Positions 8,073 to 63,110 of a DNA stretch of 64,000 nt are shown here, in pieces; positions within the stretch are counted from its first letter, which is position 1; each line of letters opens with the position of its first letter. Source of the stretch: Malacoraja senta (lineage: Eukaryota); the NCBI GenBank assembly GCA_038087875.1, contig CM075993.1, positions 2,048,001 through 2,112,000 on the forward strand. Reading direction: 5' to 3'. A program made the position numbers and the translations under genes. The notes under the pieces are model-generated. The model saw nothing but the letters and a program-made list of their open reading frames with translations, did no database searches and was not told where the DNA came from.

Positions 8073-8654
8073 ACCCATTGCTTCTCTCCAGAGATGCTGC
8101 CTGTCCCGCTGAGTTACTCCTGCTTTTTATGTCTATCTTCCAAAGCTGAGACGCCCAAATTTGATGAAGTCTGACTAGCCATCGTGCCATTTTATTGTAA
8201 TAAATACTAAATTGTTTACGGCAACAGGAATCACTGCTAATACGTTGGCGATTTCACAAAGGCATTATGTTTTGCGGATGATTTTCTGTAATTTTATGGT
8301 GGATTTACTGCTGAGGTCCAGGATTTACTGTGTTTAGATATTTCTAACTAGTGATGGAATAATAAAGATCCTCTCTGTGAACAAGCAGAGGTGCAAGTGT
8401 CACGTTAATCTTGACATTGATTATTCGTCACCTTGTCTGGCAAGAAGTTACAGTACATGGGCACCATCTGTGAAACTGGAGTAATTATCACTCAGCTTAA
8501 TCACCTGCTGGAGGAACTTAACCTACACGAGCATGCAGTGATTTAGGAGAGATAGGAGCCACTTGGCCCATCGTGTCCATACTAGCTCTTCAATGCTATG
8601 TAATAAATTCCATCCTACTACACTCTCCCAATTTAGTTCAATTTAGTTTATTGT

Positions 8655-8981
8655 GTGAAGAAGGGTTTCGGCCCGAAACGTTGCCTATTTCCTTCGCTCC
8701 ATAGATGCTGCTGCACCCGCTGAGTTTCTCCAGCATTTTTGTGTACCTGCTGGAGAAACTCAGCGGGTGCAGCAGCATCTATGGAGCGAAGGAAATAGGC
8801 AACGTTTCGGGCCGAAACCCTGAAGGAAATAGGCAACGTTTCGGGACGAAACCCGGAAGGGTTTCGGGCCGAAACGTTGCCTATTTCCTTCGCTCCATAG
8901 ATGCTGCTGCACCCGCTGAGTTTCCCCAGCATTTTTGTGTACCTTCGATTTTCCAGCATCTGCAGTTCCTTCTTAAACAAA
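8655..8981. mobile_element. pLTR-only fold-back element
   Basis: Direct and inverted pLTR segments; TSD TAGTTTATTGT at 8644-8654 and 8982-8992. Confidence 0.8.
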
Positions 8982-9000
8982 TAGTTTATTGTCACGTGTG

Positions 9001-10263: not shown

Positions 10264-10464
10264 CGTGAGCAAATACTTGCCTGCTGCTCACTAGCTGACA
10301 TGTGTAATACTTACAATGACATGAGTGGAGGCCATTCGGCCCGTCGTGGCCATTCTGACACCGAGTGAGAAATGCTACCCTTCTTACCTTCCATGCTTGT
10401 CATCTCCCTCTGATCCACTCACCTACATTAAGTGGTGATGTACAGCAGCTCATTAACCTACCAA

Positions 10465-11193
10465 AAAAAGACACAAAGTGCTGGGGTTACTTAGCGGGTC
10501 AGGCAGCATCTCTGGAGAACAAGGCGAGGTGACGTTTCGGGTCGGGACCCTTTTTCAGAATCTGAAGTAGGATCCCGACCTGATACGTCACCTATCCATG
10601 TTCTCCAAAGATGCTGCCTGACCCGCTGAGTTACTCCAGCACTCTGTGAAACGTCACCTATCCATGTTCTCCACAGATGCTGCCTGACCCGCTGAGTTAC
10701 TCCAGCACTCTGTGAAACGTCACCTATCAATGTTCTCCACAGATGCTGCCTGACCCGCTGAGTTACTCCAGCACTCTGTGAAACGTCACCTATCCATGTT
10801 CCGGCAGCATCTATAGGGCGAAGGAAATAGGCAACGTTTCGGTCCGAAACCCTTCCGGGTTTCGGCCCAAAACGTTGCCTATTTCCTTCAGGGTTTCGGC
10901 CCGAAAGGTTGCCCATTTCCTTCGCTCCACAGATGCTGCCTGACCTGCTGAGTTACTCCAGCACTCTGTGAAACGTCACCTATCCATGTTCTCCACAGAT
11001 GCTGCCCGACCCGCTGAGTTACTCCAGCACTCTGTGAAACCTCACCTATCCATGTTCTCCACAGATGCTGCCTGACCCGCTGAGTTACTCCAGCACTCTG
11101 TGAAACGTCACCTATCCATGTTCTCCACAGATGCTGCCTGACCCGCTGAGTTACTCTGTCACTTTGCGACTTAATTTGTAAACCAGCATCTGC
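10465..11193. repeat. pLTR-derived tandem array, 66-bp units with one 190-bp composite unit
   Basis: GAAACGTCACCTATCC unit starts at 10648, 10714, 10780, 10970, 11036, 11102; preceded by an inverted pLTR arm. Confidence 0.9.
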
Positions 11194-11194
11194 C

Positions 11195-11523
11195 GTTTAG
11201 TTTGGTTCAGTTTAGTTTAGTTTCGAGATTCAGTGCGGAAACAGGCCCTTCCGCCCACCGGGTCCGCGCTGACCAGCGATCCGCGCACCTTAACACTATA
11301 CCACACGCTCGGGACAATTTTTACACATACACCAAGCCAATTAACCTACAAACCTGTAGGTCTTTGGAGTGTGGGAGGAAACCGAAGATCTCGGAGAAAA
11401 CCCACTCAAGTCACGGGGAGTACGTGCAAACTCCGTACAGACAGCACCCGTAGTCGGCATCGAACTCGGGTCTCCGGCGCTGCATTCGCTGTAAGGCAGC
11501 AACCCTACCGCTGCGCCACCGTG
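11195..11523 (-). mobile_element. V-SINE, full length
   Basis: Complete head, core and tail on the minus strand. Confidence 0.9.
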
Positions 11524-12004
11524 ACGTTCTTTGTTTCTGCTACGAATGCAAGTCAGACACTGAAAATTCATTAAATTAAAATCGTTTTCTCTCCACACGA
11601 TACAAATGCATTACATTTTTAATGAACTTGAATCAGCAGCAATGAATCATTGGAATTTAAGCTTCTCAATTTGATCTGGACCCTACTGAGGAGTAGAACT
11701 TGCTCAAAGCAGGCAAACCTTGAAGTGACTTCACAGTGGAGCAGCAGAAACAAGGAACTGCAGATGCTGGTTTACAGAAAATGGCACAGAGTGCTGGAGC
11801 AACTCACCGGGTCAGGCAGCATCTCTGGAAAACTTGGAGAGGTGGCGTTTCGGGTCGGGAGTGGGTTCAATTTACAAACCATTATGTCTTGGGACTTGGG
11901 GAAAAAATCTGAGCACTCAGAAGAAAAACATATAAAGCAAATCCATAATTCTTAGCAAATCATTAAGATGATTATTGAATTTTTTCCCAATATATAACAA
12001 ATAT

Positions 12005-12735
12005 ATGTAGGTGGAGGGAACTGCAGATGCTGGTTTGCAGCGTTGGATTAACTGAGTGGGTCTGAAGAAGGGGTTTCCTGACCCGAAACGTCACCCGTCC
12101 ATGTTCTCCAGAGGTGCTGCCTGACCCGCTGAGTTACTCCAGCACTCTGTGAAACGTCACCTATCCATGTTCCGGCAGCATCTATAGAGCGAAGGAAATA
12201 GGCAACGTTTCGGTCCGAAACCCTTCCGGGTTTCGGCCCAAAACGTTGCCTATTTCCTTCAGGGTTTCGGCCCGAAAGGTTGCCCATTTCCTTCGCTCCA
12301 CAGATGCTGCCTGACCCGCTGAGTTACTCCAGCACTCTGTGAAACGTCACCTATCCATGTTCCGGCAGCATCTATAGAGCGAAGGAAATAGGCAACGTTT
12401 CGGTCCGAAACCCTTCCGGGTTTCGGCCCAAAACGTTGCCTATTTCCTTCAGGGTTTCGGCCCGAAAGGTTGCCCATTTCCTTCGCTCCACAGATGCTGC
12501 CTGACCCGCTGAGTTACTCCAGCACTCTGTGAAACGTCACCTATCCATGTTCTCCACAGATGCTGCCTGACCCGCTGAGTTACTCCAGCACTCTGTGAAA
12601 CGTCACCTATCCATGTTCTCCACAGATGCTGCCTGACCCGCTGAGTTACTCCAGCACTCTGTGAAACGTCACCTATCCATGTTCTCCACAGATGCTGCCT
12701 GACCCGCAGTTTCTCCAGAGCCTTGTGTCTTTTTT
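12005..12735. repeat. pLTR-derived tandem array, two 190-bp units and 66-bp units
   Basis: Unit starts at 12151, 12341, 12531, 12597, 12663; hammerhead-like core at 12062-12092 heads the array. Confidence 0.9.
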
Positions 12736-13213
12736 TAGAACTAGCGAATGCTTTTCAAAGATCATTCTCCGAGATGAACTCCATTGAATTTGAACTTTGT
12801 ACATCACCATAGCAACCGTTGGCAAATCACTCACAGGCCGGCTTTGTTTCCAATACACAGAGCAAAACTGGAACTTCAAATATCGAGAGCTTCCGAGCTT
12901 TGGGCTTCTCTGCTTCCTATGTTGAACTGAATTAAATTGAACACACGTGAAATCACAGTGAAATCCTTTGCTTGCTTAACCGAGGTATACAAATAGTGAC
13001 CACATAAAGGGCGCGGACAAAGTTACAAATTACACCCCCACCGGCACCAGGTCCCCCTTTTGTTCTCCCTCCCCCCCCCTCCCGCCTCCGTCGCACCGAC
13101 CCAGGCCCCGCCCGCGAGGCTCCAGCGCCGGCCCACGAGGCTCCAGCTGCGGCTTCTCAGCGGCACGCTATAGTCCCGGTCATTCCAGTGGTTCTCTGAT
13201 CTCGCTCCGACCT

Positions 13214-18073: not shown

Positions 18074-18702
18074 CTAATCTGCCAACCCTCCCACTAACTC
18101 TTTACTCAAAGATATCCTAATATCTGAAATCGAGTCCCTTAATCTCGCAACCAAAGTCATCTATTCACTATTAATTGGTGCCCTCCCTTATATCACTCAT
18201 TTACAGGTGCCCGCTGCTAATTCCCCTGTGTCCTGGTGATTTCAATCAACTGATTATGATTATTATGTGTAGTACGTGTATTACGAGTCTAACGTGTATC
18301 ATGTTGAAATTGGCTTTTGATTTTTTAATTTATGTATGTGCATATATGTTATGTATTTTTCTTTTCTTCTTTTTTTAATCGTTCGGAATAAAAGATATAA
18401 CAATAATGAAAGATACAATAATACAAAAAAAAAATAATAATTACAATTCTTTTCAATAGAAAGAAAATCCTTCTTTCAACTATTTGACCCACTTCAGTGT
18501 GTTCGTGATAAATCTCCCGAGAAGTCACAGGGACACTTTGGAGTCCATAAAATTATTTATTAAAGTCATAAATTGCAGGAAGGATATTAGTACTCCGGGC
18601 AAGTTGTCCACAATGAATGCATAATGAGAAAAGAGTCTAATGCTCGCATAAAGGACAAAGTTGGAGACTTGATCATGTTCAGATCTGTAGTTAAGATCTA
18701 AG

Positions 18703-19397
18703 GTAGACAAAAATGATGGAGAAACTCAGCGGGTGAGGCAGCATCTATGGAGCGAAGGAATAGGTGACGTTTCGGGTCGAGACCCGGAAGGGTCTCGACC
18801 CGAAACGTCACCTATTCCTTCGCTCCATAGATGCTTCCTGGTCTCGACCTGAAACCTCACCTATTCCTTCGCTCCATAGATGCTTCCTGGTCTCGACCCG
18901 AAACCTCACCTATTCCTTCGCTCCATAGATGCTTCCTGGTCTCGACCCGAAACGTCACCTATTCCTTCGCTCCGTAGATGCTTCCTGGTCCCGACCCGAA
19001 ACGTCACCTATTCCTTTGCTCCATAGATGCTTCCTGGTCTCGACCCGAAACGTCACCTATTCCTTCACTCCATAGATGCTTCCTGGTCTCAACCCGAAAC
19101 ATCACCTATTCCTTCGCTCCATAGATGCTTCCTGGTCTCGACCCGAAACGTCACCTATTCCTTCGCTCCATAGATGCTTCCTGGTCTCGACCCGAAACCT
19201 CACCTATTCCTTCGCTCCATAGATGCTTCCTGGTCTCGACCCGAAACGTCACCTATTCCTTCACTTCATAGATGCTTCCTGGTCTCGACCCGAAACCTCA
19301 CCTATTCCTTCGCTCCATAGACGCTGCCTCACCCGTTGAGTTCTCCAGCAATTTTGTCGACCTTCGATTTTTCCAGCATCTGCAGTTCTTTCTTACA
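18703..19397. mobile_element. pLTR fold-back element containing an 11 x 49-bp tandem array
   Basis: Units from 18791 to 19281 at 49-bp spacing; TSD AGTTAAGATCTAAG at 18689-18702 and 19398-19411. Confidence 0.9.
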
Positions 19398-19459
19398 AGT
19401 TAAGATCTAAGTTTCACTTTGGCCCACCTTGTCCACTTTTGCCCACCTACACGAGGTCC

Positions 19460-20799: not shown

Positions 20800-21158
20800 A
20801 GCCCCTGTCCCACTGTACGAGGTAATTCAAGAGTTCTCCCCGGTTTTCCCCTGATTCGAACTCGGAGAATGTCCTAAGCTGGTCCGTAGGAGTACGTGGA
20901 TGTCTCGTAGCGGCTCGTACGAGTAAAGTAACCAGGTTTTTTCATCGGACAAGTGATTTTTTTACTCGTCCATCCATGACAAAAATGTCCACGAGTAAAA
21001 AAATACTTGTGATGAAAAAAATGGTTACTTTTTACTCGTACGAGCCGCTACGAGACATCCACGTACTCCTACGGACCCGCTACGGACATTCTCCGAGTTC
21101 GAATCAGGGGAAAACCCGGGGGAACTCTTGAATTACCTCGTACAGTGGGACAGGGGCT
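20800..21158. mobile_element. Harbinger-type MITE, almost fully palindromic (359 bp)
   Basis: TIRs AGCCCCTGTCCCACTG / CAGTGGGACAGGGGCT; 3-bp TSD TTC on both sides. Confidence 0.9.
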
Positions 21159-21459: not shown

Positions 21460-22145
21460 TGGGATGTCGTAGGTGCTGTCGTAGGTTGTCGCCAGGTTAA
21501 CATAGGTTGTCACCGGTAGACAAAAATGCTGGAGAAACTCAGCGGGTGAGGCAACTTCTATGGAGTGAAGGAATAGGTGACGTTTCGGGTCGAGACCAGG
21601 AAGCATCTATGGAGCGAAGGAATAGGTGACGTTTCGGGTCGAGACCAGGAAGCATCTATGGAGTGAAGGAATAGGTAACGTTTCGGGTCGAGACCAGGAA
21701 ACATCTATGGAGTGAAGGAATAAGTGACGTTTCGGGTCGAGACCCTTCCGGGTCTCGACCCGAAACGTCACCTATTCCTTCGCTCCATAGATGCTGCCTC
21801 ACCCGCTGAGTTTCTCCAGCATTTTTGTCTACCTTCGATTTTCCAGCATCTGCAGTTCCTTCTTAAACAATAGGTTGTCGCTGGTGTTTAAGAAGGAACT
21901 GCAGATGCTGGAAAATCGAAGGTAGACAAAAATGCTGGAGAAACTCAGCGGGTGCAGCAGCATCTATGGAGCGAAGGAAATAGGCAACGTTTCGGCTCGA
22001 AACGTTGCCTATTTCCTTCGCTCCATAGATGCTGCTGCACCCGCTGAGTTTCTCCAGCAGGTTGTCGCTGGTGCTGACTTCGATGCATTCCATTGTCCTA
22101 GTCGCTGGCAGTCGCCTAAAAACTCGCCTAAGTGGGACAGGCCCA
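21460..22145. mobile_element. Harbinger-type MITE right part, interrupted by two pLTR fold-back elements (21516-21870, 21887-22058)
   Basis: Ends CCTAAGTGGGACAGGCCC; interior resembles 26202-26602 in reverse; TSD AGGTTGTCGCTGGTG at 21872-21886 and 22059-22073. Confidence 0.75.
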
Positions 22146-22953: not shown

Positions 22954-22986
<33 letters not shown>

Positions 22987-23059
22987 CTGATGATGATGAT
23001 GCTGATGATGATGCTGATGATGATGATGATGATGATGATGCTGATGATGATGATGATGC

Positions 23060-23118
<59 letters not shown>

Positions 23119-23137
23119 CTGATGATGATGATGATGC

Positions 23138-23187
<50 letters not shown>

Positions 23188-23228
23188 CTGATGATGATGA
23201 TGATGATGATGATGAAGATGAAGATGAA

Positions 23229-23262
<34 letters not shown>

Positions 23263-23263
23263 C

Positions 23264-23304
<41 letters not shown>

Positions 23305-23323
23305 CTGATGATGATGATGATGC

Positions 23324-23364
<41 letters not shown>

Positions 23365-23405
23365 CTGATGATGATGATGATGATGATGATGAAGATGAAG
23401 ATGAA

Positions 23406-23439
<34 letters not shown>

Positions 23440-23458
23440 CTGATGATGATGATGATGC

Positions 23459-23499
<41 letters not shown>

Positions 23500-23500
23500 C

Positions 23501-23541
<41 letters not shown>

Positions 23542-23572
23542 CTGATGCTGATGATGATGATGATGATGATGC

Positions 23573-23658
<86 letters not shown>

Positions 23659-23735
23659 CTGATGATGATGATGATGATGATGATGAAGATGAAGATGAAG
23701 ATGAAGATGAAGATGAAGATGAAGATGAAGATGAT
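22954..23735. repeat. (GAT)n trinucleotide microsatellite, ~780 bp, with GCT and GAA variants
   Basis: Directly visible. Confidence 0.98.
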
Positions 23736-29911: not shown

Positions 29912-30884
29912 TTACACACTATCCAGTTCCATCGTAGGAACATTTATAATTCCTTTCATAAAATATACTGCAGTCCATAAACCCTCGAGTCCATAAACTT
30001 CACGGCTTGAGCCAGTTAGAAATGTAACTGGATATAAAGTGGTGTTCAGTCTATGAAGAATACTTCACTATTGTTTAAGGTCAGTCAGGTTTTCTAACAT
30101 AGTGCACTAATCAATCCATTCAGCATCTCTGTATAACACACTATCCAGTATAGAATGTATCATAAGGCTTGATTCATAGTGTCTCTAACATAATGTATAC
30201 AGTACCTCAGTGAATAATCTGTTTCTGTTCTGACCATCAAACGAACTTTTCCACCTCCGAAGGAATTCTTCTCATCAGAAGTCCTTCCACAACAGTAGGA
30301 CTGCGTGAGGTTCCCAGATTAGCCTCCACAGGTCACCCAAAACCAACAGTTCAAGTGAAAAACAGGACATAGACACAAGGAAGAGACTCAAAACTCAACG
30401 GGCCAGGCAGCTTCTCTGGAGAAAGGGAATAAGTTTTGGGTCGAGATCCTTCTTCGTCCCGAAGCAGGGCCTTGATCCAAAGAGTCTGAAGAAAGGTCTC
30501 GACCCAAAACATGAGTCTGAAGAAGGGCGTTTAGTGTAGATTGGGCATGTTGGTCGGTGTGGGTAAGTTGGGCTGAAGGGCCTGTTTCCACACAGTGTAA
30601 CTCTGACTCTAAGATTCCATTGTCTAGCACTAACCAAATACTTAACCACCCTCCCACCCCACCTCCTCCAAAGGTCTGGTGATCTCTAAGTGACAATGGG
30701 GCAGTGTCCCACCTAGAACCCCTCTCTGTGAATTCCACAGGTAAGTGATTTGGAAAATGACCACTTGGAATAAGATGACCACTCACAGATGCCAACTCTG
30801 CATCTCCCTCTCCCTCCTCCTCGAAAGACCATTGTCCAATTCATCTCATTAGCTCCTTATAACAGATATTGCTGGAATACTAAT

Positions 30885-32509: not shown

Positions 32510-33250
32510 CTTTGCCACTCTCCCATATACCTATAAACCTGTCCTATCCATGTACCTGTCTATACCTGTTTCTTAAACGTTGCGATAGTCAATAGACAAT
32601 AGACAATAGACAATAGACAATAGACAATAGACAATAGACAATAGACAATAGACAATAGACAATAGGTGCAGGAGTAGGCCATTTGGCCCTTCAAGCCAGC
32701 ACCGCCATTCAATGTGATCATGGCTGATCATCCCCAATCAGTACCCCGTTCCTGCCTTCTCCCCATATCCCCTGACTCCGCTATCTTTAAGAGCCCTATC
32801 TAGCTCTCTCTTGAAAGCATCCAGAGAACCCGCCTCCACTGCCCTCTGAGGCAGAGAATTCCACAGACATACTCCCAATAGTCCCGGCCTCAACTACCTC
32901 CTCCGACAGCTCGTTCCAAACACCCACCACCCTTTGCGTGAAAAAGTTACCCCTCAGATACCTATAAAATCTTTCCCCCTTCTCCTTAAACCTATGCCCG
33001 ACTCCCCCACTCTGGGCAAGAGATTCTGTGCGTCTACCCGATCTATTCCTCTCGTGATTTTATACACCTCATTAAGATCCCCCCCCTCATCCTCCTGCGA
33101 TCCAGGGACTAGCGCGAGCCTGCTCGAACTCTCCCCAAATCTCGGACACTGGAGTCCAGTTACAAGCTTGTAAATCATCTCTGCACCTTTTCTAACTTGA
33201 CAACATCTTTCCCATAACATGGTGCTCAGAACTGAACACAATACTTTAAA
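32510..33250 (-). mobile_element. CR1 fragment with nested CR1 tail (32590-32868, about ten ATAGACA repeats)
   Basis: Minus ORF 32954-33241 contains GDLNEVYKITRGIDRVDAQNLLPRVGES. Confidence 0.8.
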
Positions 33251-33252
33251 TG

Positions 33253-33489
33253 TTTAAGAAGGAACTGCAGATGCTGGAAAATCGAAGGTAGACAAAAATG
33301 CTGGAGAAACTCAGCGGGTGAGGCAGCATCTATGGAGCGAAGGAAATAGGCAACGTTTCGGGACGAAACCCTTCCGGGTTTCTTCCCGAAACGTTGCCTA
33401 TTTCCTTCAGGGTTTCGGCCCGAAACGTTGCCTATTTCCTTCGCTCCATAGATGCTGCTGCACCCGCTGAGTTTCTCCAGCTCTACCTG
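33253..33489. mobile_element. pLTR-only fold-back element
   Basis: TSD CAATACTTTAAATG at 33239-33252 and 33490-33503. Confidence 0.85.
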
Positions 33490-34024
33490 CAATACTTTAA
33501 ATGCCTCCTCACCAATGTCTCATATATCTCTCGTTTCTCTTTCCCCTGACTCTCAGTCCGAAGAAGGGTCTCGACCCGAAACGTCACCTATTCCTTCTCT
33601 CCAGAGATGCTGCCTGTCCCGTTGTGTTGCTCCAGCTTTTTGTGTCTATCTTCACCTAACTGCAGCACGAGTTACTCCAACAATTTCCGCCTATCTTTGA
33701 GAAAACTGATCTTCTGTTCAATATTTAGAGCTGCTAAAAATAATGAGCTTGATTCCATTTTTATTACAATTACTCGGTTCGCAGGGTATGTTGGGAAGAA
33801 TGTGCAACTGGCCATGAATACAAGGCACTAACCCATCTGAGCAATTCAAATGGCATATTAAAGCTGGAAGGTTAGTTATGGTCATTGCCTGGAAGTTGGT
33901 TAAAACCATAAAACTATATATGAGAACCTGTTATAATTTACACAATATTCCGTTTTAGTTTTATGTTCTAGATGTTAGTTCATTTTTTTTGAAGTGTAGA
34001 TCCACACCTCTATTATATCCCATA

Positions 34025-35180
34025 GTTTAGTTTAAAGATACAGCATGGAAACAGGCCACTCAGCCCACCGAGTCCATGCCGACCGGCGATCTCTGCACTC
34101 TAACACTATCCTACACACACTAGGGACAATTGACACTTACACCAAGCCAGTTGACCTACAAACCCGCACGTCTTTATAATAATAATAATCATCATTTTAT
34201 TTACTGGCGCCTTTCTAAAACCCAAGGACACCTTACAATGCATAGAATCACAAAAAAATACAAAACACATAATCGGAATAAATTAAATATAAAAACACCA
34301 CAGTACACAAATCAAGGACAGAATTCAATTTCAAGAGCACCAAAAGAAAATAAGAAACACAATTTGAGGAGAGAGCAGCGGCGACCAATTCGCGCCAGCG
34401 TCCACTCTCCCCTCCGACCGCCATCTTGTACACGGACTGACAGGCACAGGCACAGCACACAAAATCATCCCCCCACAATGACCACCACTGTGGGGGAAGG
34501 CACAATGTCCAGTCCCCAACCCAGTTCTCCCCAGAGTCAGGCCCATCGAGGCCTCCACGGTTGCCTCTACGGAGGCCCGATGTTTCTGGCCGTCGGGACA
34601 GTCCTCGCAGCGGCTGGAACGGACGGTTTCCCAGCGGAGTCGATGGCACCTGAAGCCGACAGGGCCGCGCCGATTTGGAGCCACGAGGCTCCCGATGTTG
34701 GAGTCGGCGCCGCCGCCCGTGGCTGGTCGCTCCGCAGTCCCGCAGCCCGGAGGTGTTGAGCTCGGCGGTCCAGCTCACCGGAGCTCCAGCGCGTCGATCC
34801 AGCGCGGCGACCCAGGCAAGGCATCGCCCGCTCCGTTCCGCGATAGCGCTCCAGCGCTGTGCCGCCACCGAAGCTGAAGGTGCTGGGCGGTCCCCGTCAG
34901 GAAACGGCGCTCCATGCCCGCTGGTAGGCCACGAGGATGGGTCGACGAGGCAGCCTGGAGAAAAAGCTGCCTCACCGACCAGGTAGGGACCTAGAAATAG
35001 TTTCCTCCTTACCCCCTTACTTTGGAGTGTGGGAGGAAGGAAGATCCTGGAGAAAACCCACGCGGTCACTGGGGAGGATGTACAAACTCCGTAAAGCCAG
35101 CACCCGTAGTCGGGATCGAACCCGGGTCTCTGGCGCTGTAAGTGCTGCAAGGCAATGATTCTACCGCTGCGCCACCGCTG
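34025..35180 (-). mobile_element. V-SINE split by an 850-bp insert
   Basis: Tail half 34025-34175 ends CACGTCTTT; resumes TTTGGAGTGTGGGAGG at about 35021. Confidence 0.8.
34176..35019 (-). mobile_element. Non-coding GC-rich retroposon with L2-like tail
   Basis: Minus 3' end AAGGTGTCCTTGGGTTTTAGAAAGGCGCCAGTAAATAAAA plus ATT repeats; GC-rich body. Confidence 0.6.
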
Positions 35181-35246
35181 CAAATTTAAGGATGGTGTGA
35201 TGGGCAGAAATACAATCTCACAAAGTTCACCCATTGTGTATGCCTC

Positions 35247-35655
35247 TGTGTAGGAAGGAACTGCAGATGCTGGCTTACAGCGAAGATAGACACAAAATGC
35301 TGGAGTAACTCAGCGGGACAGGCAGCATCTCTGGAGAGAAGGAATGGGTGACGTTTCGGGTCGAGACCCTTTTGCAGACTGAGAGTCAGGGGGTGGGAAA
35401 CGAGAGCTATGCAAGGGTAAGGTGTGAAAATGAGAGAACAAAGGGGATGAAGATCAAGGAAGATGTAGACTGGATCAATGTTAGCTCGGGGAAGGTGACA
35501 ACGAGGCATGCAATGTAAAATTTCATCAAGAGGACAGTCAGACTGGTCGGAGAACCAGGATAGGGGAGGGATGGGGAGAGAGAGAGAAAGCAGGGGTTAC
35601 TTGAAGTTAGAGGTCAATATTCATGCCACTGGGGTGTAAGCTGACCAAGCGAAAT
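35247..35655 (-). mobile_element. Penelope-like 3' end (GIY-YIG end, UTR, pLTR)
   Basis: Reverse complement of the 57583-58420 and 60150-60428 sequence. Confidence 0.8.
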
Positions 35656-35825
35656 GCCTCATGCATCTGTATTTTTTCCAGCTGCACAAATTCCTTCCTT
35701 CATTGCGTCCAGGGTTATGTTTAGAGATGGAAACAGGCCCTCCAGCCCAACTCATCCACGCTGTCCAAGTTGCCGAACGAAGCTAGTTCCAGTTGCCTGC
35801 ACCTGACCCATATCCTGCTCCCAGC

Positions 35826-36030
35826 AGAGTGAGATGTCCGTGAGGGACAGTTGCCGACTGGCCCGCTCCAGACTGCAGGAGTAAGTGCTGGGAGACGCAC
35901 TGAAGCTAGATACAGCCAACGCCAAGGCTCTGTGGGGGAGGACCACAGTCTAGGATCCTTCCCACTGCAGGACATTGAGGGCCTGAGTCCACTGGGCCCT
36001 CCCCCACAAACATGGGAAAGGGTAGCCTTC
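35826..36030 (+). mobile_element. Tx1-clade LINE ORF2 C-terminal fragment
   Basis: SEMSVRDSCRLARSRLQE*VLGDALKLDTANAKALWGRTTV*, resembling Tx1 ORF2 ends; one internal stop. Confidence 0.6.
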
Positions 36031-36137
36031 AGGTGTTAGGGCCATACAGTGGTGCAGCGGTAGAGTTGCTGCCTTACAGCGCCAGAGAACAGAGTTCGAT
36101 CCTGATTACGGGTGCTGTCTGATTGGAGTTTGTATGT

Positions 36138-36587
36138 TAGACAATAGACAATAGACAATAGGTGCAGGAGTAGGCCATTCAGCCCTTCGAGCCAGCACCG
36201 CCATTCAATGTGATCATGGCTGATCATCCCCAATCAGTACCCCGTTCCTGCCTTCTCCCCATATCCCCTGACTCCGCTATCTTTAAGAGCCCTATCTAGC
36301 TCTCTCTTGAAAGCATCCAGAGAACCTGCCTCCACCGCCCTCTGAGGCAGAGAATTCCACAGACTCACCACTCCCTGTGAGAAAAAGTGTTTCCTCGTCT
36401 CCGTTCTAAATGGCCTACCCCTTATTCTTAAACTGTGTGGCCCCTGGTTCTGGACTCCCCCAACATCGGGAACATGTTTCCTGCCTCTAGTGTGTCCAAG
36501 CCCTTAACAATCTTATATGTTTCAATGAGATACCCTCTCATCCTTCTAAACTCCAGAGTGTACAAGCCCAGCTGCTCCATTCTCTTT
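36138..36587 (-). mobile_element. CR1 3' fragment inserted in a V-SINE (36040-36743, +)
   Basis: CR1 C-terminus and TATTGTC tail; SINE halves on either side. Confidence 0.85.
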
Positions 36588-37029
36588 GTGTTCTCCTTGT
36601 GACTTCAGTCAATCACCCCTAGTGTGTAGGATGCAAAACTGGGATAAGATAGAACTAGCATTAAAGGGTGATTATTGGTAGGGGTGGACTAGATGGGCCA
36701 AAGGGCCTGTTTCCACACTGTATCTGTAGACGAAACTAAACTATGAACCACGAGGGGCAAATAAATGGCAAGGATACTTTAACTAAGGATGAGTGTAACA
36801 TTATTGAATGTATAGAGAATATATGAAGAATATTTGAACAATTTTTATCCTTATATGTATTTTTTCATCAGAATATATATTTTTTGAAATTGAAAAAAAT
36901 GCCATAATCGACACGATCTGCATTTCCTATGGTAGCTGATTAAGGATCGCCAATAGTGCCAACTTCAAAACTGGCGAGTATAATTCAAATTAATTCAAAT
37001 TTCATTAAATTAATTTTGACTTAATTCAA

Positions 37030-37450
37030 AATAAGTCTACTCCGCCATTCAATCATCGCTGATCTATCTCTCCCTCCTAACCTCATTCTCCTGCCTTCTC
37101 CCCATAACCCCTGACTCCTGTACTAATCAAGAATCTGTCAATCACCGCCTTAAAAATATCCACTGACTTGGCCTCCACAGCCTTCTGAGGCAGAGAATTC
37201 CACAGATTCACCTCCCTCTCACCGAAGAAATGTCTCCTCATCTCCTTCCTAAAAGAACGTCCTTTAATTCTGAGGCTGTGACTAGTCCTAGACTCTCCCC
37301 ACTAGTGGAAACCTCCTCTCCACATCCACTCTATCCAAGGCTTTCACTATTCTGTGCGTTTCAATGAGGTCCCCCCTCATTCTTCTAAACTCCAGCGAGT
37401 ACAGGCCCAGTGCCGACAAACGCTCATCATAGGTTAACCCACTCATTCAC
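37030..37450 (-). mobile_element. CR1 3' fragment
   Basis: Reverse complement of 4810-5220. Confidence 0.85.
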
Positions 37451-37899
37451 TGTGGCGACCTTTCTTCTGCTCCTAATTTCTTGGTTTTAGATGTTACTAC
37501 CATTGCATTTCCAAAAATAAATGGCAGCAGGTCCAGAATAATAATTCACGATAAAGAAAATAAATGTATAATGTATAACATTACAAATCAGTGACCCTTA
37601 CAATCAATTAACGTTAATAGACATAAGATTTCAAGGTCCATTAATCAGGCATAAGTCCAAATTTTCAATCATTGTTATGGCACGGACAGCATTAAAAATA
37701 ACACTGAGGGAAGATCACGCTGTGGCATTTAGTGTAAGAAAGAACTGCAGATACTGGTTTATACCGAAGGTAGGCACAGAATGCTGGAATAACAGCGGGT
37801 CAGGCAGCATCTGTGAAGAAGAGGAATAGGAGATGTTTTGGGTCGGAACCCTTCTTCAGACTGAAAGATAGAAGTTGGGGTGCATGGAATAACTTGAAG

Positions 37900-38478
37900 T
37901 GAGCACATCAGCGCCTCTACTTCCTGAGAAGATTACGGAGAGTCGGTTTGTCAAGGAGGACTCTCTCTAACTTCTACAGGTGCACAGTAGAGAGCATGCT
38001 GACCGGTTGTATCGTGGCTTGGTTCGGCAACTTGAGTGCCCTGGAGAGGAAAAGACTACAAAAAGTAGTAAACACTGCCCAGTCCATCATCGGCTCTGAC
38101 CTCCCTTCCATCGAGGGGATCTATCACAGTCGCTGCCTCAAAAAGGCTGGCAGCATCATCAAGGACCCACACCATCCTGGCCACACACTCATCTCCCTAC
38201 TACCTTCAGGTAGAAGGTACAGGAGCCTGAAGACTGCAACGACCAGGTTCAGGAATAGCTACTTCCCCACAGCCATCAGGCTATTAAACCTGGCTCGGAC
38301 ATAACACTGAACTTTACTAGCCAATACTGTTATTTGCACTTTATCAGTATGTTGACCATTGTGTATATATTTATAGAATGCCTTGTAGTAAATGCCTACT
38401 ATGTTCTGTTGTGCTCAAGCAAAGCAAGAATTTCATTGTCCTACCAGGGACACATGACAATAAACTCACTTGACTTGA
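37900..38478 (+). mobile_element. Rex1/Babar LINE 3' fragment
   Basis: QRLYFLRRLRRVGLSRRTLSNFYRCTVESMLTGCIVAWFG...FPTAIRLLN; tail CACATGACAATAAA. Confidence 0.9.
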
Positions 38479-38510
38479 GAACCTCCACCACTAATGTACT
38501 GAATAAAGAC

Positions 38511-38670
38511 AAAAGATAGACACATAATACTGGAGTTACTCAGTGGGACAGGCAGCATCTCTGGAGAGTAGAAATGGGTGTTCCAGCAATGTTGCCTGTC
38601 CCGCTGAGTTACTCCGGCTTTTTGTGCCTATCTTTGGTTTAAACCAGCATCTGCAGTTCCTTCCTACACA
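38511..38670. mobile_element. pLTR-only fold-back element
   Basis: TSD TACTGAATAAAGAC at 38497-38510 and 38671-38684. Confidence 0.8.
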
Positions 38671-38960
38671 TACTGAATAAAGACTTTATGTATCTACAGC
38701 TCCACTCTACATGTGGCTCATAAGGTCATAAGGCCATAAGGTCATGTGATTGGAGCAGAATTAGGCCATTCGGCCCATCAAGTCTACCCCGCCATTCAAT
38801 CATGGCTGATCTATCTCTCCCCCCTAACCCCGTTCTCCTGCCTTCTCCCCGTAACCCCTGACACCTTCAAAGCCACGATAAAAATCTGAAAATCTTTGTG
38901 CCGAGTAAAGCTGCCGGATTTAAACAGTAAAGGGGGAAAAAATCCCTGTTTGCATCTAGT

Positions 38961-38988
38961 CTGAAGAAGGGTCTCGACCCGAAACGTC
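38961..38988 (+). ncRNA. Hammerhead-like motif, intact core
   Basis: CTGAAGAAGGGTCTCGACCCGAAACGTC. Confidence 0.55.
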
Positions 38989-39354
38989 ACCCATTCCTTC
39001 TCTCCAGAGATGCTGCCTGTCCCGCTGAGTTACTCCAGCATTTTGTGTCTATCTGTTTTCATGTAACTTCCCCACAGCTTTGCTGTACTAATGCTATTTC
39101 CCTTGAAGGGTAATGTAATCTATTCCTGCTTCTATTTCCAAACTTTAGAATAGATATCTACTTGGGTATTAAATTAAACCTGGACCCAAGCCAACTCGAC
39201 CTTTAGAAATTTACAGAATAGACTTGCAGGCAAATTGCTATTTATCAAGTGCCACAAATGTGCAGCTAGCTATTCAAGCTGCTGTCTCTCAATCCCATTC
39301 TCCTGCCTTCTCCCCGTAACCTTTGAGACCATTCCTAATCAAGTACCTGTCAAC

Positions 39355-43562: not shown

Positions 43563-43847
43563 CATTTTGTGTCTATCTTCAGAAAACACTGCCAATGCAC
43601 GGCGGTCCAGATAGCATCTGCTGAGGTAAGATTGGATGAGGCATTTCAACTTGGTCAACATCACCAAAGTTATGTGTAGGAGGGACCTGCAGATGCTGGT
43701 TTACACCAGAGATAGACACAAAATGCTGGAGTAACTCAGCGGGACAGGCTGCATCTCTGCAGAGAAGGAATGGGTGACGTTTTGGGTCGAGACCCTTCTT
43801 CAGACTGAGACTCAGGGGAGAGGGAGTCTAGAGATATGGAAGGGCAA

Positions 43848-44057
43848 AGGGCCTGTCCCACTTCCACGACCTAATTCACGACCTCTGCCGAGTTTGCCCT
43901 TGGCTCATACTCGCAGCATGGTCGTCACGAGGTCGTAGGTAGGTCGTGATGCTAGTCGTAGGTACTCGTGGCATCAAGTAGGTCGGGCGTTTTTTTCTAG
44001 CCTGATGAAAAATGTCCACGAGGTGGTGGATTAGGTGGTGAAAGTGGGACAGGCCCT
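43848..44057. mobile_element. Harbinger-type MITE inserted in a Penelope 3' UTR
   Basis: TIRs AGGGCCTGTCCCACTT / AAGTGGGACAGGCCCT; flanks CAA/TAA. Confidence 0.8.
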
Positions 44058-44557
44058 TAAAGGTGTAAAAACGACAGATCAAATGACAAGGAATTGTAGG
44101 AGTGTTTAAGAAGGAACTGCAGATGCTGGAAAATCGAAGGTAGACAAAAACGCTGGAGAAACTCAGCGGGTGCGGCAGCATCTATGGAGCGAAGGAAAAA
44201 GGTGACGTTTCGGGTCGAGACCCTGAAAGGGTCTCGACCCGAAACGTCGCCTTTTTCCAGGAAATGTAGAATGGTAGATTGTTGGCTGAGGGGAAGATGA
44301 TAACGAGGCGTAGGGTTTCTCACTGTTAAATTGGCTCCAGTGTGTGAGTGAGTGGAAGAAGCTGGGAGTTGATGAGAAGGCAGGGAAAAATAAAATTGGG
44401 ATTGATGTAGAATTAGTGTAAATGGGCCAGTTGTTGGTGTGTGCTTACACGCATGTGTGTACGTGTTTACAATGTACATATGCCCAGCACATGTGTTTAT
44501 GTATGTACATGCGTTATGTGTGTGTATAGATGCATCTGCATGTACATGTGACTATAG

Positions 44558-44566: not shown

Positions 44567-44636
<70 letters not shown>

Positions 44637-44822
44637 AGTGTGTGTGTGTCTATGTGTGTGTGTGTATGTCTAAGTGTGTGTGTGTGTGTGTCTATGTGTG
44701 TGTGTCTAAGTGTGTGTATGTCTACATTGTATGTGTGTTTGTGTGTGTATGTGTGTGTCTATGTGTGTGTTTATGTGTGTACGTGTGTTTGTGTGTTTGT
44801 GTGTATTTGTGAGTATGTGTGT

Positions 44823-44855
<33 letters not shown>

Positions 44856-45008
44856 TATGTGTGTACGTGTGTGTGTACGTGTGTGTGTGTATGTGTGTGT
44901 TTATGTGTGTACGTGTGTGTGTGTGTGTGTGTGTGTGTGTCTATGTGTGTACGTGTGTGTGTACGTGTGTGTGTGTCTATGTGTATGTTTATGTGTGTAC
45001 GTGTGTTT
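44558..45008. repeat. Compound (TG)n microsatellite
   Basis: Directly visible. Confidence 0.95.
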
Positions 45009-45018
45009 GTGCCTCCTT

Positions 45019-45057: not shown

Positions 45058-47189
45058 TTATTTATTAGAAGTACATACATTACATTAATACTCGTCATTT
45101 ATATCTTCTTACAATTAATGTACTCCCTTTATTTATTTTTTTACACTAGAGAAAGAAAAGATTGAAAGAGAGAAGAAAGTGAAGGAAAAAGTGCAAGTGT
45201 AGAAAAGTGTAGAAAATGTAACAACAAAAAAGGACGAAGACCCTATAAGAGCGAAATTAAAAACAAAAAGAAAAAGAGTTAAGAAATAGGCCCTAAGAAA
45301 AGAAAAGAGAAAGAGAAAAAAAGAGAAACAAATGTTTTTTTTTTTTTTGAGCATCACGTAAATAGGACATACCAACTCTTCAACTATCATCCCCCCTTAC
45401 CCGACCTCAATTTTTTTATTTTTTTAAAGTACTTTTGCACCCTATGTTTGTAATAATTCTATAAATGCAGACCACGTCAGGTGGAAGTGATCTGGTTTAC
45501 CTGCTAGGAGGAGTCTTATCTCTTCAAGGTGTAATGTTTCAGACATATTTGAAATCCACATATTTATAGTTGGTATTGGAGCCTTCTTCCAAAATTTTAG
45601 AATTAGCTTTTTTCCAGTTATTAACCCATAATCCATTAATTTCTTTTGAAACACATTTAGTTCTGGATCATCTTCCGTTATTCCGAAGATAATCCATTCT
45701 GCTTTGGGTATCAGTCTTGTTTTAAATAACTTTGTAAAGATTTCAAAAATTTCATTCCCAAATTTTTGAATTTTTGTACAGAAGACAAATGAGTGCGCTA
45801 TAGTTGCTTCTTGGGATTGACATTTATCACAAATAGATGATACGTTTGGGAAAATTTTATGAATTTTAGTTTTCGAATAATATAATCTATGTAAAATTTT
45901 AAATTGTATTAAAGTGTGTCTTACATTAATCGAGCATTTATGCACTTTTAATAAGTATTCATTCCAACTTTCCTTTGAGATTTTAATAGCTAACTCTTGT
46001 TCCCAGTCTCTTCTGATACCCTCCGTAGATGGTATTTGTACATTTAAGATAATATTGTACAAATATGATATTAAGTTTGCTGATTCCGCTTTTATCTGCA
46101 TTGCCTCGTCCAGTACATCTGCTGGGTTATTATGATGATCTTTTATATATTTTTTCAAATAGTCGCATATTTGAAAGTATTTAAAATATTGATTATTTCC
46201 GAGTTTATATTTTATTTGTAATTGTTGAAATGAAAGTAATTTTCCAGTTTCATACAAGTCACCAAGCGTTTTAATTCCTAGTCTATCCCATTGTGTATAA
46301 GCTTTATCTATAATAGAAGGACTAAACGAAGGGTTATTGACTATAGGTAATAAAAGTGATAAATTTCTTAATTTTAAATTTTGTTTTATTTGTTTCCAAA
46401 TACGGATTGTACTATGAATAATTGGGTTCTTATTATAGTTTATGTTATTCAATTTCATTGGAGAGAGGAGGATCGCTCCAATGTTTCTAGAGGAGCAATC
46501 CTCTTTCTCCATTACAATCCAGTCTACTTGCTGGGCGGAGTTATCCATCAGTTGAATCATGTTTTTAATATTTACTGACCAATAATAATACATAAAATTA
46601 GGTAGTGCTAGACCCCCCAATACTTTAGATTTATTCAGATGGGTTTTTTGTATTCTATGTGATTTATAGTCCCATATAAAATTAGTGATATCTGAGTCGA
46701 GTTTTTTAAAAAACTTCTTAGGTAAGTATATAGGAATTGATTGAAATAGGTATAAAATTTGTGGTAAAAAGATCATTTTTATTGCGTTTATTCGGCCTAT
46801 TAAAGACATCGGGAGCGTTTTCCAGAATTTAATTAATGTATTTAGTTTATTAAGTAGGGGGTCGAAATTTGCCCTGAGCATACCTTGATATGTTCTGGTA
46901 ATTTCGATTCCCAAATATTTAAATTTTTCTGTAGCTATTTTAAAAGGGAATTTTAAAAGATGTGTTGAATCTTTCGGTTTTATTGACATAATTTCACTTT
47001 TATTCCAATTTATTCTATATCCAGAAAAAGATCCGAAGTCTTCAATTAAATTTAATATATTTGGTATAGTGATTTGAGGTTTTGTAATATACAATAATAT
47101 ATCATCCGCGTATAAAGATATTTTATTATATGAGTCTTTAGTATTATATCCATGAATATCAGGGTGTATTCTAATTTTTTCTGCTAGCG
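45022..47189 (-). mobile_element. L1-clade LINE, 5'-truncated; ORF2 frame open from 47190 to the stop at 45442
   Basis: KISLYADDILLY RT motif at about 47090-47125; CDKC..H..C zinc knuckle; poly(A) at 45022-45052; 13-bp TSD GTGCCTCCTTTCT at 45009-45021 and 47190-47202. Confidence 0.95.
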
Positions 47190-47544
47190 GTGCCTCCTTT
47201 CTATAACAAATATCAATGTATTCAGTCCTGATCTAATTTAACCTGCTTATTACAATTAGCGACACTTTGTAAACAGCCTGTGCCTGTTTTTAATGAAGTG
47301 CACTTTCCAGTGGATTGTTATTTTAATAATTTGAACAATTAATTGGAACCTAAGCAACTCAATGTACTTTCTAATTAGTTTCTGTTTGTATTCTTAAGCT
47401 ACTGTGAAGAATGTCAGCTTTTTTCTTCAGGAAACTCCCCCATCCTCCGTCTGGTTATCATCGGCCACAGCCCCCCCCCCCCCCCCCCCCCCCCATATTG
47501 AGAATGGGGTAACAGGGGTGTTTTATCCTTCATCTGCAGTTAAA

Positions 47545-49780: not shown

Positions 49781-49883
49781 ACACGCACACACGCACACAC
49801 ACACACACGCACACACACGCACACACACACACGCACACACGCACACACACACACACGCACACACACGCACACACACACACACA

Positions 49884-49935
<52 letters not shown>

Positions 49936-50120
49936 CACACACACGCACACACACACACACGCGCACACACACACACACACACACACTCACACTCACACTC
50001 ACACACACACACGCACACACACGCATGCACACGCACACACACACACATACACAGATACACACACTCACATACACACACACACGCACACTCACATATGCAC
50101 ACGCACACACACGCACGCAC

Positions 50121-50161
<41 letters not shown>

Positions 50162-50417: not shown

Positions 50418-50469
<52 letters not shown>

Positions 50470-52328: not shown

Positions 52329-52843
52329 TAGTTCCCTCATTAGAAATTGGCTCCCAATGCTTCAATGATAAGCGTGAGCCGTCTATCTTGTGTCTATTGT
52401 GTAATTAGAATGAAAGACATGACAGAGTCCGGCTCATACACTGTGATTGAAAGAAGGTACTGGCCTTTCAAAATATCCTATTTCTATTGAGCTGTAAATC
52501 TGTCATTTTGCATTGCTGCCGCCAGCCCATTCTAGGCATCACTCTTCTTTCTCAGTACAGGACGAGTTTTGATAAGAATTCGGAAGTATAAAATGACATT
52601 AAACATTAAACATTTAAATGACGTCAGACAACAGAGTTCATTAATTGTGTTAATTGGCATTCAAATCTTTAAACTTATAATGAAAACTTCCTTAGAATAT
52701 TGAGGAGATTTGTTAAGTCAATAAACATTGAGTGTACTTCTACAGATGTGCATTATTGAACAGCGGGACATGTGGTTTTCCTGGGGGGGGGAGGGCATCG
52801 AACATCGGGGGGGGGTGGGGGGGGGGAAATAACACCTTATTCA

Positions 52844-53071
52844 TGCTGGAGAAACTCAGCGGGTGAGGCAGCATCTATGGAGCGAAGGAAATAGGCAACG
52901 TTTCGGCCCGAAACCCTTCCGGGTTTCGCCCCGAAACGTTACCTATTTCCTTCAGGGTTTCGGGCCGAAACGTTGCCTATTTCCTTCGCTCCATAGATGC
53001 TGCTGCACCCGCTGAGTTTCTCCAGCATTTTTGTCTACCTTCGATTTTCCAGCATCTGCAGTTCTTTCTTA
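52844..53071. mobile_element. pLTR-only fold-back element
   Basis: TSD AACACCTTATTCA/AACACTTTATTCA at 52831-52843 and 53072-53084. Confidence 0.8.
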
Positions 53072-53212
53072 AACACTTTATTCACCTTGGGTTTAATCTT
53101 TATTGATCAGGATTATGTTTATTAACAATATAGAAAAAGAAGAAATGGGATAGAATTACGTATTTTCCGTCTATACAGCATCAAAGTAGCGGGACACCAA
53201 AGTAGACACTTA

Positions 53213-54000: not shown

Positions 54001-54282
54001 ACTATCCTCATTGTGAAATTCTAGGTTCATGCTGGTTTAAACCGAAAATAGACACAAAAAGCTGGAGTAACTCGGCGGGACAGGCAGCATCTATGGAGAG
54101 AAGGAATGGGTGACGTTTCAGGTGGAGACCCTTCTTCAGAGTCAACCTCTATGGACTGTGTTTGGTACACCAAGGACTTGGGGTTTTGCTTTGCATGAGT
54201 ATTGCAGCTATTAGTTAAATTATTATTTTTTATTTATATAATCTATACTAATTATGGATAAGAATACATATATTATCTAGGT

Positions 54283-54414
54283 GTTTAAGAAAGAACTGCA
54301 GATGCTGAAAAAGGTAGACAGAAATGCGGGAGAAACTCAGTGGGTGAGGCAGCATCTATGGAGAGAAGGAATAGGTGACGTTTCGTGTCGAGACCCTTCT
54401 TCAGATGGATGTGC
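54283..54414 (-). mobile_element. Single pLTR insertion
   Basis: TSD TATATTATCTAGGT at 54269-54282 and 54415-54428. Confidence 0.8.
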
Positions 54415-54459
54415 TATATTATCTAGGTATTTTGTTTGAGTTTTTTCTAGGTTTTATTT

Positions 54460-62390: not shown

Positions 62391-62723
62391 CCTCCTGTAA
62401 GTAAAAGCTGCAAGGAAAATGTTGTTAATCTTACACAGCCCAGCTTCAGGGAAGTCCAGTGGTGAGGAATAGATTATAAATGGAGCCGAGAAAATTCCAA
62501 TTTGCCACACAAGCATAAAATTGGGGATAAGATAACCGATGTGGAATCAGATTCCCATCGGAGAAAGCACTAGCTGTCAGTTGTGGTGAAACCAAAGGAC
62601 ATGTTCATCAGACGGATTCAATTACAACAGAGATCTCTATCACAAACCTGCTTACATTGAAAATCGACTTTCTTTTTTTCATCCACAGCGAAAATATTCC
62701 ACTGAGCAGAACTCACTCAACCC

Positions 62724-63110
62724 AAGCGCAGGCTCGGCGATCGTTTCGCTGAACACCTCCGCTCAGTCCACCTAAACCTACCCGATCTCCCGGTGGCTCA
62801 GCACTTTAACTCCCCCTCCCATTCCCAATCTGACCTTTCTGTCCTGGGCCTCCTCCATTGTCAGAGTGAGGCCCAGCGCAAATTGGAGGAACAGCACCTC
62901 ATATTTCGCTTGGGCAGTTTACACCCCAGCGGTATGAACATTGACTTCCCTAACTTCAAGTAGCCCTTGCTTTCTCTCTCTCTCCAACCTCTCCCCCTTC
63001 CCAGTTCTCCCACCAGTCTCACTGTCTCCGACTACATTCTATCTTTGTCCCGCAGCATCTCTGGAGAGAAGGAAGTGGCGACGCTTCGGGTCGAGACCCT
63101 TCTTCAGACT
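62724..63110 (+). mobile_element. Penelope-like GIY-YIG endonuclease C-terminus (62724-62963), UTR and inverted pLTR
   Basis: KRRLGDRFAEHLRSV..PVAQHFNSPSHS..SVLGL..QRKLEEQHLIFRLGSLHPSGMN, 80 codons including stop, no internal stop. Confidence 0.9.

What the first reader, a model, noticed from the sequence alone, without database searches (positions are those of the whole stretch)
33239..33503. pLTR-only fold-back mini-elements that insert independently with ~14-bp TSDs
Seen: elements made only of pLTR sequence, often as inverted arms, are bounded by direct repeats: 8644/8982 (11 bp), 18689/19398 (14), 21872/22059 (15), 33239/33490 (14), 38497/38671 (14), 52831/53072 (13), 54269/54415 (14). 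None has coding sequence. Inference: a non-autonomous, MITE-shaped but retrotransposed family mobilised by Penelope RT/GIY-YIG. Inverted pLTRs are known for Penelope; whether this stand-alone hairpin family is described I cannot determine.
Basis: partly seen in the sequence, partly recalled or inferred. Interest (0 to 1): 0.7.

Follow-up and report, generated by a model that had tools for sequence, protein, structure and literature searches.

The report
Hairpin mini-copies of Penelope retrotransposon ends
These are short hairpin-shaped insertions made from the end of a Penelope-like retrotransposon in what is probably a skate genome; their shape follows a known Penelope pattern, but several share an identical centre, which suggests the hairpins themselves get re-copied.

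Summary
Real. Six of the 7 listed direct repeats are exact; the seventh matches 12 of 13. At 33239 the 14-mer occurs once in the interrupted CR1 reading frame, so it is a true target-site duplication (TSD). The unit is the 3' end of a Penelope-like element (PLE): sister copies run on from a GIY-YIG C-terminus and 3'UTR and carry a minimal hammerhead motif. An inverted end, a ~35-nt tail on one side and a TSD are the described PLE insertion pattern, and non-autonomous pLTR derivatives are described. Less ordinary: (1) 5 of 8 TSD-bounded hairpins share one exact inversion joint, 3 with the same 34-bp duplication and 2 with the same 49-bp array, so hairpin cores look inherited rather than remade; (2) the tail sits on either arm; (3) 7 of 8 short arms stop at two fixed sites; (4) TSDs flank 8 of 11 two-arm loci but 3 of 29 single arms. 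Likely mechanism: PLE RT/endonuclease copies hairpin RNAs, priming from both target nicks (inferred). Not a uniform MITE-like family. Orthologous empty sites and Repbase/Dfam status remain untested. New variant of a known kind.

The parts
33239..33252 (.). Left TSD (14 bp; last 2 letters shared with the element's tail end)
33251..33375 (-). Long arm: PLE 3'-terminal repeat from hammerhead stem II to the 3' end, with the ~35-nt tail (33251-33286); lacks the CUGA half of the hammerhead core
33365..33382 (+). Head-to-head inversion joint (CCCTTCC/GGG), identical at 8848, 10846, 12217, 12407, 52910 and, in the sister subfamily, 18779 and 21739
33376..33409 (+). 34-bp internal duplication beside the joint, shared with 8644, 10803, 12174, 12364 and 52831
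33409..33489 (+). Short arm without tail; ends CTCCAGC then TCTACCTG (7-nt skip, one extra G)
33490..33503 (.). Right TSD (14 bp)
33130..33519 (-). Target: decayed CR1 LINE ORF2 remnant interrupted by the element
33520..33657 (+). Separate single-arm PLE end (subfamily B, part of 3'UTR, tail-less, no TSD) in the same CR1 remnant
8644..8992 (.). TSD-bounded (11 bp) three-arm element: single arm, then hairpin with the shared joint and 34-bp duplication
18689..19411 (.). TSD-bounded (14 bp) hairpin, subfamily A2, shared joint plus 11 x 49-bp array; tail on the array arm
21502..21884 (.).
21872..22073 (.). TSD-bounded (15 bp) simple fold-back at the natural palindrome of hammerhead stem II (arms overlap 15 bp); re-uses the target of the preceding element
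38497..38684 (.). TSD-bounded (14 bp) hairpin of subfamily B with its own apex
44089..44269 (.).
52831..53084 (.). TSD-bounded (12 of 13) hairpin with the shared joint and 34-bp duplication; tail on the duplication arm
54269..54428 (-). TSD-bounded (14 bp) single arm with tail and intact hammerhead core; not a hairpin
10459..12736 (.). Two arrays of a third subfamily (66-bp units) that captured three copies of the shared hairpin core; no TSD found
62712..62957 (+). Longest PLE GIY-YIG C-terminal remnant in the window; its end and 3'UTR match the copies at 35247-35655, 58086-58421 and 60153-60427, which continue into the terminal repeat

Best explanation
They are insertions made by the RT/GIY-YIG protein of a Penelope-like element (probably Neptune type) acting in trans on short non-coding RNAs from the PLE 3' end. 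Shown: PLE ancestry of the unit, true TSDs, fixed end sites, shared cores. Inferred: the endonuclease makes staggered nicks about 10-15 bp apart; one nick primes cDNA at the tail end of one arm; the other nick primes the opposite strand at an internal, tail-less start site of the inverted arm, so both outer ends of the insert are PLE start sites and a TSD results. When no second arm is available the 5' end is usually joined by repair without a TSD. At least two hairpin source elements (joint + 34-bp duplication; joint + 49-bp array) were copied repeatedly, in both directions, while other hairpins (21872, 38497, 44089) have their own apexes and may have folded back at insertion. My split: PLE-made insertions with true TSDs 0.93; inherited cores 0.7; two-nick priming at start sites 0.55.
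For: GIY-YIG end + 3'UTR + terminal repeat contiguous in 3 window copies; homologues carry PLE RT motifs and GIY-YIG. Minimal hammerhead-like motif in 20 copies, 0 in 100 shuffles. Exact joint at 6 + 2 places, 0 in shuffles; same 34-bp duplication in 6 of 6 A-type joints and same 49-bp array with the same variant letter in 2 of 2 A2-type joints. The two arms differ at the same 2 letters in the same direction in 33239 and 52831, which a fresh fold-back would not give. 7 of 8 short arms end at reference positions 76-78 or 86-92; tail and tail-less ends are also loose-end hot spots in contigs of the same and related species (38671: 916-1057 contigs in 3 runs; 35282: 1215-1428 in 3 runs). 1-4 letters shared with the TSD at most ends, on both sides. 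TSD of 11 bp or more at 8 of 11 two-arm loci against 3 of 29 single arms, Fisher p = 2.7e-4, though most single arms (18 of 21 compared) are 90-99% like their nearest relative, so age alone does not explain it. The purified anole PLE protein cleaves and extends both strands and starts at two internal sites that define the tail (PMC11167929).
Against: Only one 64-kb window: 5 TSD-bounded loci share the joint. 8644 lacks the arm asymmetry and begins with a 5' end, not a start site. No both-tailed source hairpin was seen, although swapping the tail between arms needs one (or two RNAs). 3 of 11 two-arm loci have no TSD and 44089 ends off-site. The end windows were chosen after seeing the data. The A and A2 subfamilies are not joined to a PLE ORF anywhere in the window (only B is). 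Laying contigs gave no empty orthologous site and did not show the joint (most rows cut).
Confidence: 0.6

Rival explanations
1. No hairpin family exists: every element is a severely 5'-truncated PLE (or single-arm) insertion whose inverted arm is made afresh by self-priming or template switching, and hammerhead stem II makes the RT stop and turn at the same letter each time.
For: 21872 folds back at a natural palindrome with a 15-bp overlap, as described for rotifer PLEs (PMC3846280). Single arms start at a fixed 5' hot spot next to the hammerhead (917-1709 loose ends at 38958), and most A-type arms in runs X2 and X3 continue upstream as normal single arms (33409). The same joint occurs in two subfamilies.
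Against: The 34-bp duplication (6 of 6 A-type) and the 49-bp array with its variant letter (2 of 2 A2-type) are subfamily-specific and base-exact; arms of one element differ in a shared way; the core was also captured into a third subfamily's array.
Confidence: 0.25
2. Mobilised by L1- or CR1-type machinery with twin priming.
For: TSD length fits L1 (own knowledge); the window holds an RT-bearing LINE ORF at 45442-47232 and CR1 remnants.
Against: No poly(A) or microsatellite 3' end at the tail (8644 has 2 extra A); ends fall on the PLE tail sites; arms are the same sequence twice, not adjacent segments as in L1 twin priming (own knowledge).
Confidence: 0.07
3. Post-insertion rearrangement, gene conversion between copies, or assembly error made the hairpins and spread the core.
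For: Very high local density (about 50 loci in 64 kb); the 10.4-12.7 kb arrays show local duplication; inverted repeats trouble assemblies (PMC8557442).
Against: TSDs close exactly on the two outer arm ends; arms differ by point changes; unique flanks at each locus; CR1 frame restored across 33239.
Confidence: 0.05
4. A true MITE moved by a DNA transposase.
For: Short, non-coding, inverted repeats, TSD.
Against: Arms are unequal so the termini are not inverted copies; TSD length varies (10-15 bp); length varies 160-723 bp; sequence is a PLE 3' end.
Confidence: 0.03

Closest known systems
Canonical EN+ Penelope-like element insertions with inverted pLTR and tail (Arkhipova et al. 2013, PMC3846280; Craig et al. 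2021, PMC8557442; Schostak et al. 2008, PMC2377424)
   Same: 5'-truncated, head-to-head inverted end, 30-40-nt tail at one end only, palindromic or overlapping junction, TSD (8-10 bp in rotifer), some copies without TSD joined by microhomology.
   Different: Here no ORF at all; the inverted part is not free in size but shares a base-exact core between dispersed loci; TSDs are longer (10-15 bp).
Non-LTR retrozymes / non-autonomous pLTR derivatives (Cervera and de la Pena 2020, PMC7229834; Li et al. 2026, bioRxiv 10.64898/2026.07.22.740005)
   Same: Non-coding, pLTR-derived, hammerhead-related, TSDs longer than 4 bp, proposed to use PLE enzymes; reported in one chondrichthyan.
   Different: Retrozymes are head-to-tail repeats with a complete hammerhead in each unit; these are head-to-head, and the joint, the 34-bp and the 49-bp units all lack the CUGA half of the core.
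Minimal hammerheads of PLE ends (Cervera and de la Pena 2014, PMC4209133)
   Same: Core boxes, extra base 5' of stem II, no helix III; paper notes pairs on opposite strands 100-700 bp apart and many single motifs from truncated PLEs.
   Different: Stem I pairs poorly here by eye; activity untested; hairpin elements have lost the core.
Non-autonomous Chlamys PLEs such as MRC1 (PMC8557442)
   Same: Non-autonomous elements sharing the 3' end of an autonomous PLE.
   Different: Head-to-tail pLTR-forming insertions in a green alga, not fold-back minis.

Membership tests
EN+ PLE-derived insertion | Sequence continuous with a PLE RT/GIY-YIG ORF end | tested here: met
   Subfamily B: 3 copies with ORF end + UTR + repeat; homologues with GIY-YIG (1 of 5 at the Pfam cut-off). 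A/A2 linked only by similarity to B (about 80-89%).
EN+ PLE-derived insertion | 30-40-nt tail present at one end only | tested here: met
   35-nt tail on one arm in 8 of 8 TSD-bounded hairpins.
EN+ PLE-derived insertion | Inverted 5'-truncated copy head-to-head, TSD | tested here: met
EN+ PLE-derived insertion | Minimal type I hammerhead in the terminal repeat | tested here: inconclusive
   Core boxes and stem II present in 20 single-type copies; Rfam lists no hammerhead match among 66 rows; stem I weak; cleavage not testable.
Neptune clade | CX2-5CxxC linker before GIY-YIG; RT phylogeny | tested here: inconclusive
   Linker seen in homologues P0002 and P0004 but not preserved in the window; no RT remnant found.
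Non-LTR retrozyme | Head-to-tail units each with a complete hammerhead | tested here: not met
   49-bp, 34-bp and 66-bp units start after the CUGA box.
Non-LTR retrozyme | Circular RNA intermediate, self-cleavage | not testable with these tools
   Only contigs of DNA or unlabelled runs were laid.
MITE | Matching terminal inverted repeats, fixed length, fixed-size TSD | tested here: not met
   Unequal arms, 160-723 bp, TSD 10-15 bp.
Annotated Repbase/Dfam family | Match to a curated consensus | not testable with these tools
   No such library offered.

The most novel reading that the evidence does not exclude
Non-coding hairpin RNAs that have lost the ribozyme replicate as self-contained parasites of a PLE: either arm can serve as the first start site, and the second target nick primes on the new cDNA (or on an antisense RNA) at the tail-less site. 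They would be a natural, high-copy read-out of how PLEs make their second strand, inverted end, one-sided tail and TSD.
Probability: 0.35. Interest if true: 0.6.

Novelty: new variant of a known kind. Interest (0 to 1): 0.4.

Why it matters
How PLEs make the second strand, the inverted end and the one-sided tail is still open (PMC11167929 calls the later steps unvalidated). A genome packed with 200-bp versions of the structure, with fixed cores, variant-marked arms and a coupling between second arm and TSD, allows these models to be told apart by counting, and gives a minimal RNA substrate for the existing in vitro assay. For annotation, such copies look like MITEs or miRNA precursors (sub-threshold Rfam miRNA matches) and should be filed as PLE products.

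Tried and rejected
No whole genome is held, so no genome-wide catalogue. Pattern scans of metagenome, prokaryote-genome and viral collections found 0 matches. Laying 4 of 24 listed runs on 32700-39300 was swamped by repeats (15 of 32,495 joints shown); relatives cover the unique flank at 33629-34053 but no shown contig bridges 33239 or 38497, so no verdict on orthologous empty sites. DNA-level search for paralogous empty sites in the window found 0 of 11; two were then obtained from the CR1 frame and the PLE UTR. A search for distant TSDs up to 4 kb upstream of 33 arms found only the 3 already known close ones as credible; the other hits lie 0.7-3.4 kb away, two plainly in other repeats, and were not pursued. 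Rfam: only sub-threshold miRNA-type hairpin matches, rejected as shape matches. Pfam did not recognise the two window GIY-YIG remnants tested (0 of 2). Single arms show no unusual folding (z -0.05 to -1.8). The first null for TSDs was inflated by simple repeats and was replaced by a masked one.

Full report
Observation. All seven direct repeats are at the stated places; six are exact and 52831/53072 matches 12 of 13. The enclosed DNA is terminal-repeat sequence only, bar 9 letters in 54269. Six are two-armed, 54269 is a single arm. Under one search rule, 4 of 1000 random masked flank pairs gave a repeat of 11 bp or more. The element in question (33239-33503) reads: TSD, long arm on the minus strand with tail (33251-33375), inversion joint, 34-bp duplication (33376-33409), short arm on the plus strand (to 33489), TSD; it folds at z -17.7. 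It interrupts a CR1 ORF2 remnant whose frame reads TLVRRHLKY on one side and HLKYCVQF on the other, against LVRPHLEYCVQF in the CR1 copy at 7056: the 14-mer was single before insertion. A second check: the 11-mer around the hairpin at 44103 is single in the paralogous UTR of the 35247 copy.

Identity of the unit. A profile search finds 88 pieces of a 125-140-nt repeat in the window, in about 50 loci. Three copies (35247-35655, 58086-58421, 60153-60427) continue upstream through a 3'UTR into the last codons of an ORF. The longest remnant of that ORF (62712-62957) has 21 homologues among 57 candidates, the best named from skates, so the host is probably a skate or ray (inference). Homologues carry PLE-type RT motifs (recognised from my own knowledge), a Cys linker and a GIY-YIG domain; the linker suggests Neptune/Nematis type by the definition in PMC8557442 but is not preserved in the window. 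Twenty copies match a minimal hammerhead layout (CTGAAGA, extra A, stem II, GAAAC, GTC/GTT), as described for PLE ends (PMC4209133); Rfam did not report it. Copies end with or without a final 35 nt, the PLE tail; both ends are loose-end hot spots in contigs of the same species and of relatives (38671 and 35282). There are at least three subfamilies (A, A2, B; a fourth forms the 66-bp arrays at 10.4-12.7 kb); only B is seen joined to the ORF.

What is known. An inverted truncated copy at the 5' end, a 30-40-nt tail at one end, palindromic junctions and TSDs are typical of PLE insertions (PMC3846280; PMC8557442; PMC2377424; PMC8969392). Non-autonomous pLTR derivatives are described as retrozymes (PMC7229834; bioRxiv 10.64898/2026.07.22.740005) and in Chlamydomonas, and close opposite-strand hammerhead pairs were noted in 2014. 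So shape and origin are ordinary.

What goes further. First, shared cores. The exact inversion joint occurs at 6 places in subfamily A (8848, 10846, 12217, 12407, 33365, 52910) and 2 in A2 (18779, 21739). All 6 A joints carry the same 34-bp duplication and both A2 joints the same 49-bp array with the same variant letter. Three A joints lie in one local array region, so the independent TSD-bounded cases are 3 + 2 of 8. In 33239 and 52831 the two arms differ at the same 2 letters in the same direction; 8644 has equal arms there. Second, the tail is on opposite arms in 33239 versus 52831 and in 18689 versus 21515. Third, 7 of 8 short arms stop at reference positions 76-78 or 86-92 (windows chosen after inspection), and most ends share 1-4 letters with the TSD. 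Fourth, TSDs of 11 bp or more flank 8 of 11 two-arm loci (none at 10459, 12014, 994-1388) and 3 of 29 single arms (p = 2.7e-4). Left out of both counts: fragments under about 60 nt and the decayed cluster at 30368-30513 (no TSD). Of 21 single arms compared, 18 are over 92% like their nearest relative and most are 94-99%, so decay alone does not explain the missing TSDs.

Mechanism. Most likely (0.6): PLE protein nicks both target strands 10-15 bp apart, primes first-strand cDNA at the tail end of one arm and primes the other strand at a tail-less start site of the inverted arm, on the cDNA or on an antisense RNA. This fits the anole PLE protein, which cleaves and extends both strands and starts at two internal sites bounding the tail (PMC11167929). 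Hairpin source loci are copied in both directions; a both-tailed source or two RNAs are needed to swap the tail, and neither was seen. The main rival (0.25) is fresh fold-back at each insertion with a stereotyped turning point; it fits 21872, 38497 and 44089 well and the shared duplication and array badly. L1/CR1 mobilisation, later rearrangement and a true MITE are unlikely.

Limits. One window, no genome, no Repbase/Dfam. The read-laying run was swamped and gives no orthologous empty site. Eight literature searches listed no paper on re-copied fold-back PLE minis or on this skate family; most subscription papers are outside that library. Seen: main text of the 2026 preprint (3 of 5 parts), of PMC11167929 and PMC4209133 (2 of 4 parts each); passages of PMC3846280, PMC8557442, PMC7229834, PMC2377424, PMC8969392; a term search of bioRxiv 10.1101/2025.06.08.657570 with no hits. 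No supplements were read; those of the 2026 preprint and PMC4209133 may list this repeat.

Verdict. Real, PLE-made, mostly the known insertion pattern at minimal size, with fair evidence that particular hairpins are themselves propagated. New variant of a known kind; interest 0.4.

Noticed in passing
window 21502-22073: Two hairpins of different subfamilies sit tail to tail with three copies of the same target sequence (first with 2 CpG-type changes): a second insertion re-used almost the same nicks in opposite polarity.
   Followed up: partly
window 33482-33490, 48987-48993, 8742-8752: The same letters TACCTG(C) end the tail-less arm of 33239 and 48987 and form the tail-to-tail joint of 8644; may point to a zig-zag multi-arm source element.
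   Followed up: no
window, single arms such as 8040, 38958, 39872, 40183, 48880: Many single copies begin at the same place just 5' of the hammerhead core with unrelated DNA upstream and no TSD; 917-1709 loose ends at 38958 in 4 runs. A fixed 5' end that is not the predicted cleavage site.
   Followed up: partly
window 10459-12736: 66-bp and 190-bp arrays of another PLE-end subfamily with the hairpin core captured three times.
   Followed up: partly
window 62706-63111: GIY-YIG remnant and UTR on the plus strand joined to a terminal-repeat piece on the minus strand; no TSD found.
   Followed up: no
window 45442-47232 (-): 596-aa open frame with RVT_1 and zf-RVT matches: 3' part of a LINE ORF2, L1-like by my reading.
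   Followed up: partly
window 20852-21106 and 43847-44030: Another inverted-repeat family (ends like AAGGGCCTGTCCCACTT at 43847-44030), unrelated to the PLE end, possibly a true MITE; one copy splits a PLE UTR.
   Followed up: no
window 22954-23735, 44567-45011, 49781-50700, 51694-52326, 59222-59898: Long simple repeats (ATG-type and CA/TG-type) that produce spurious long frames.
   Followed up: no
window 994-1388: Two tailed B arms head to head around 53 unrelated letters and 85 nt of UTR; no TSD found.
   Followed up: partly
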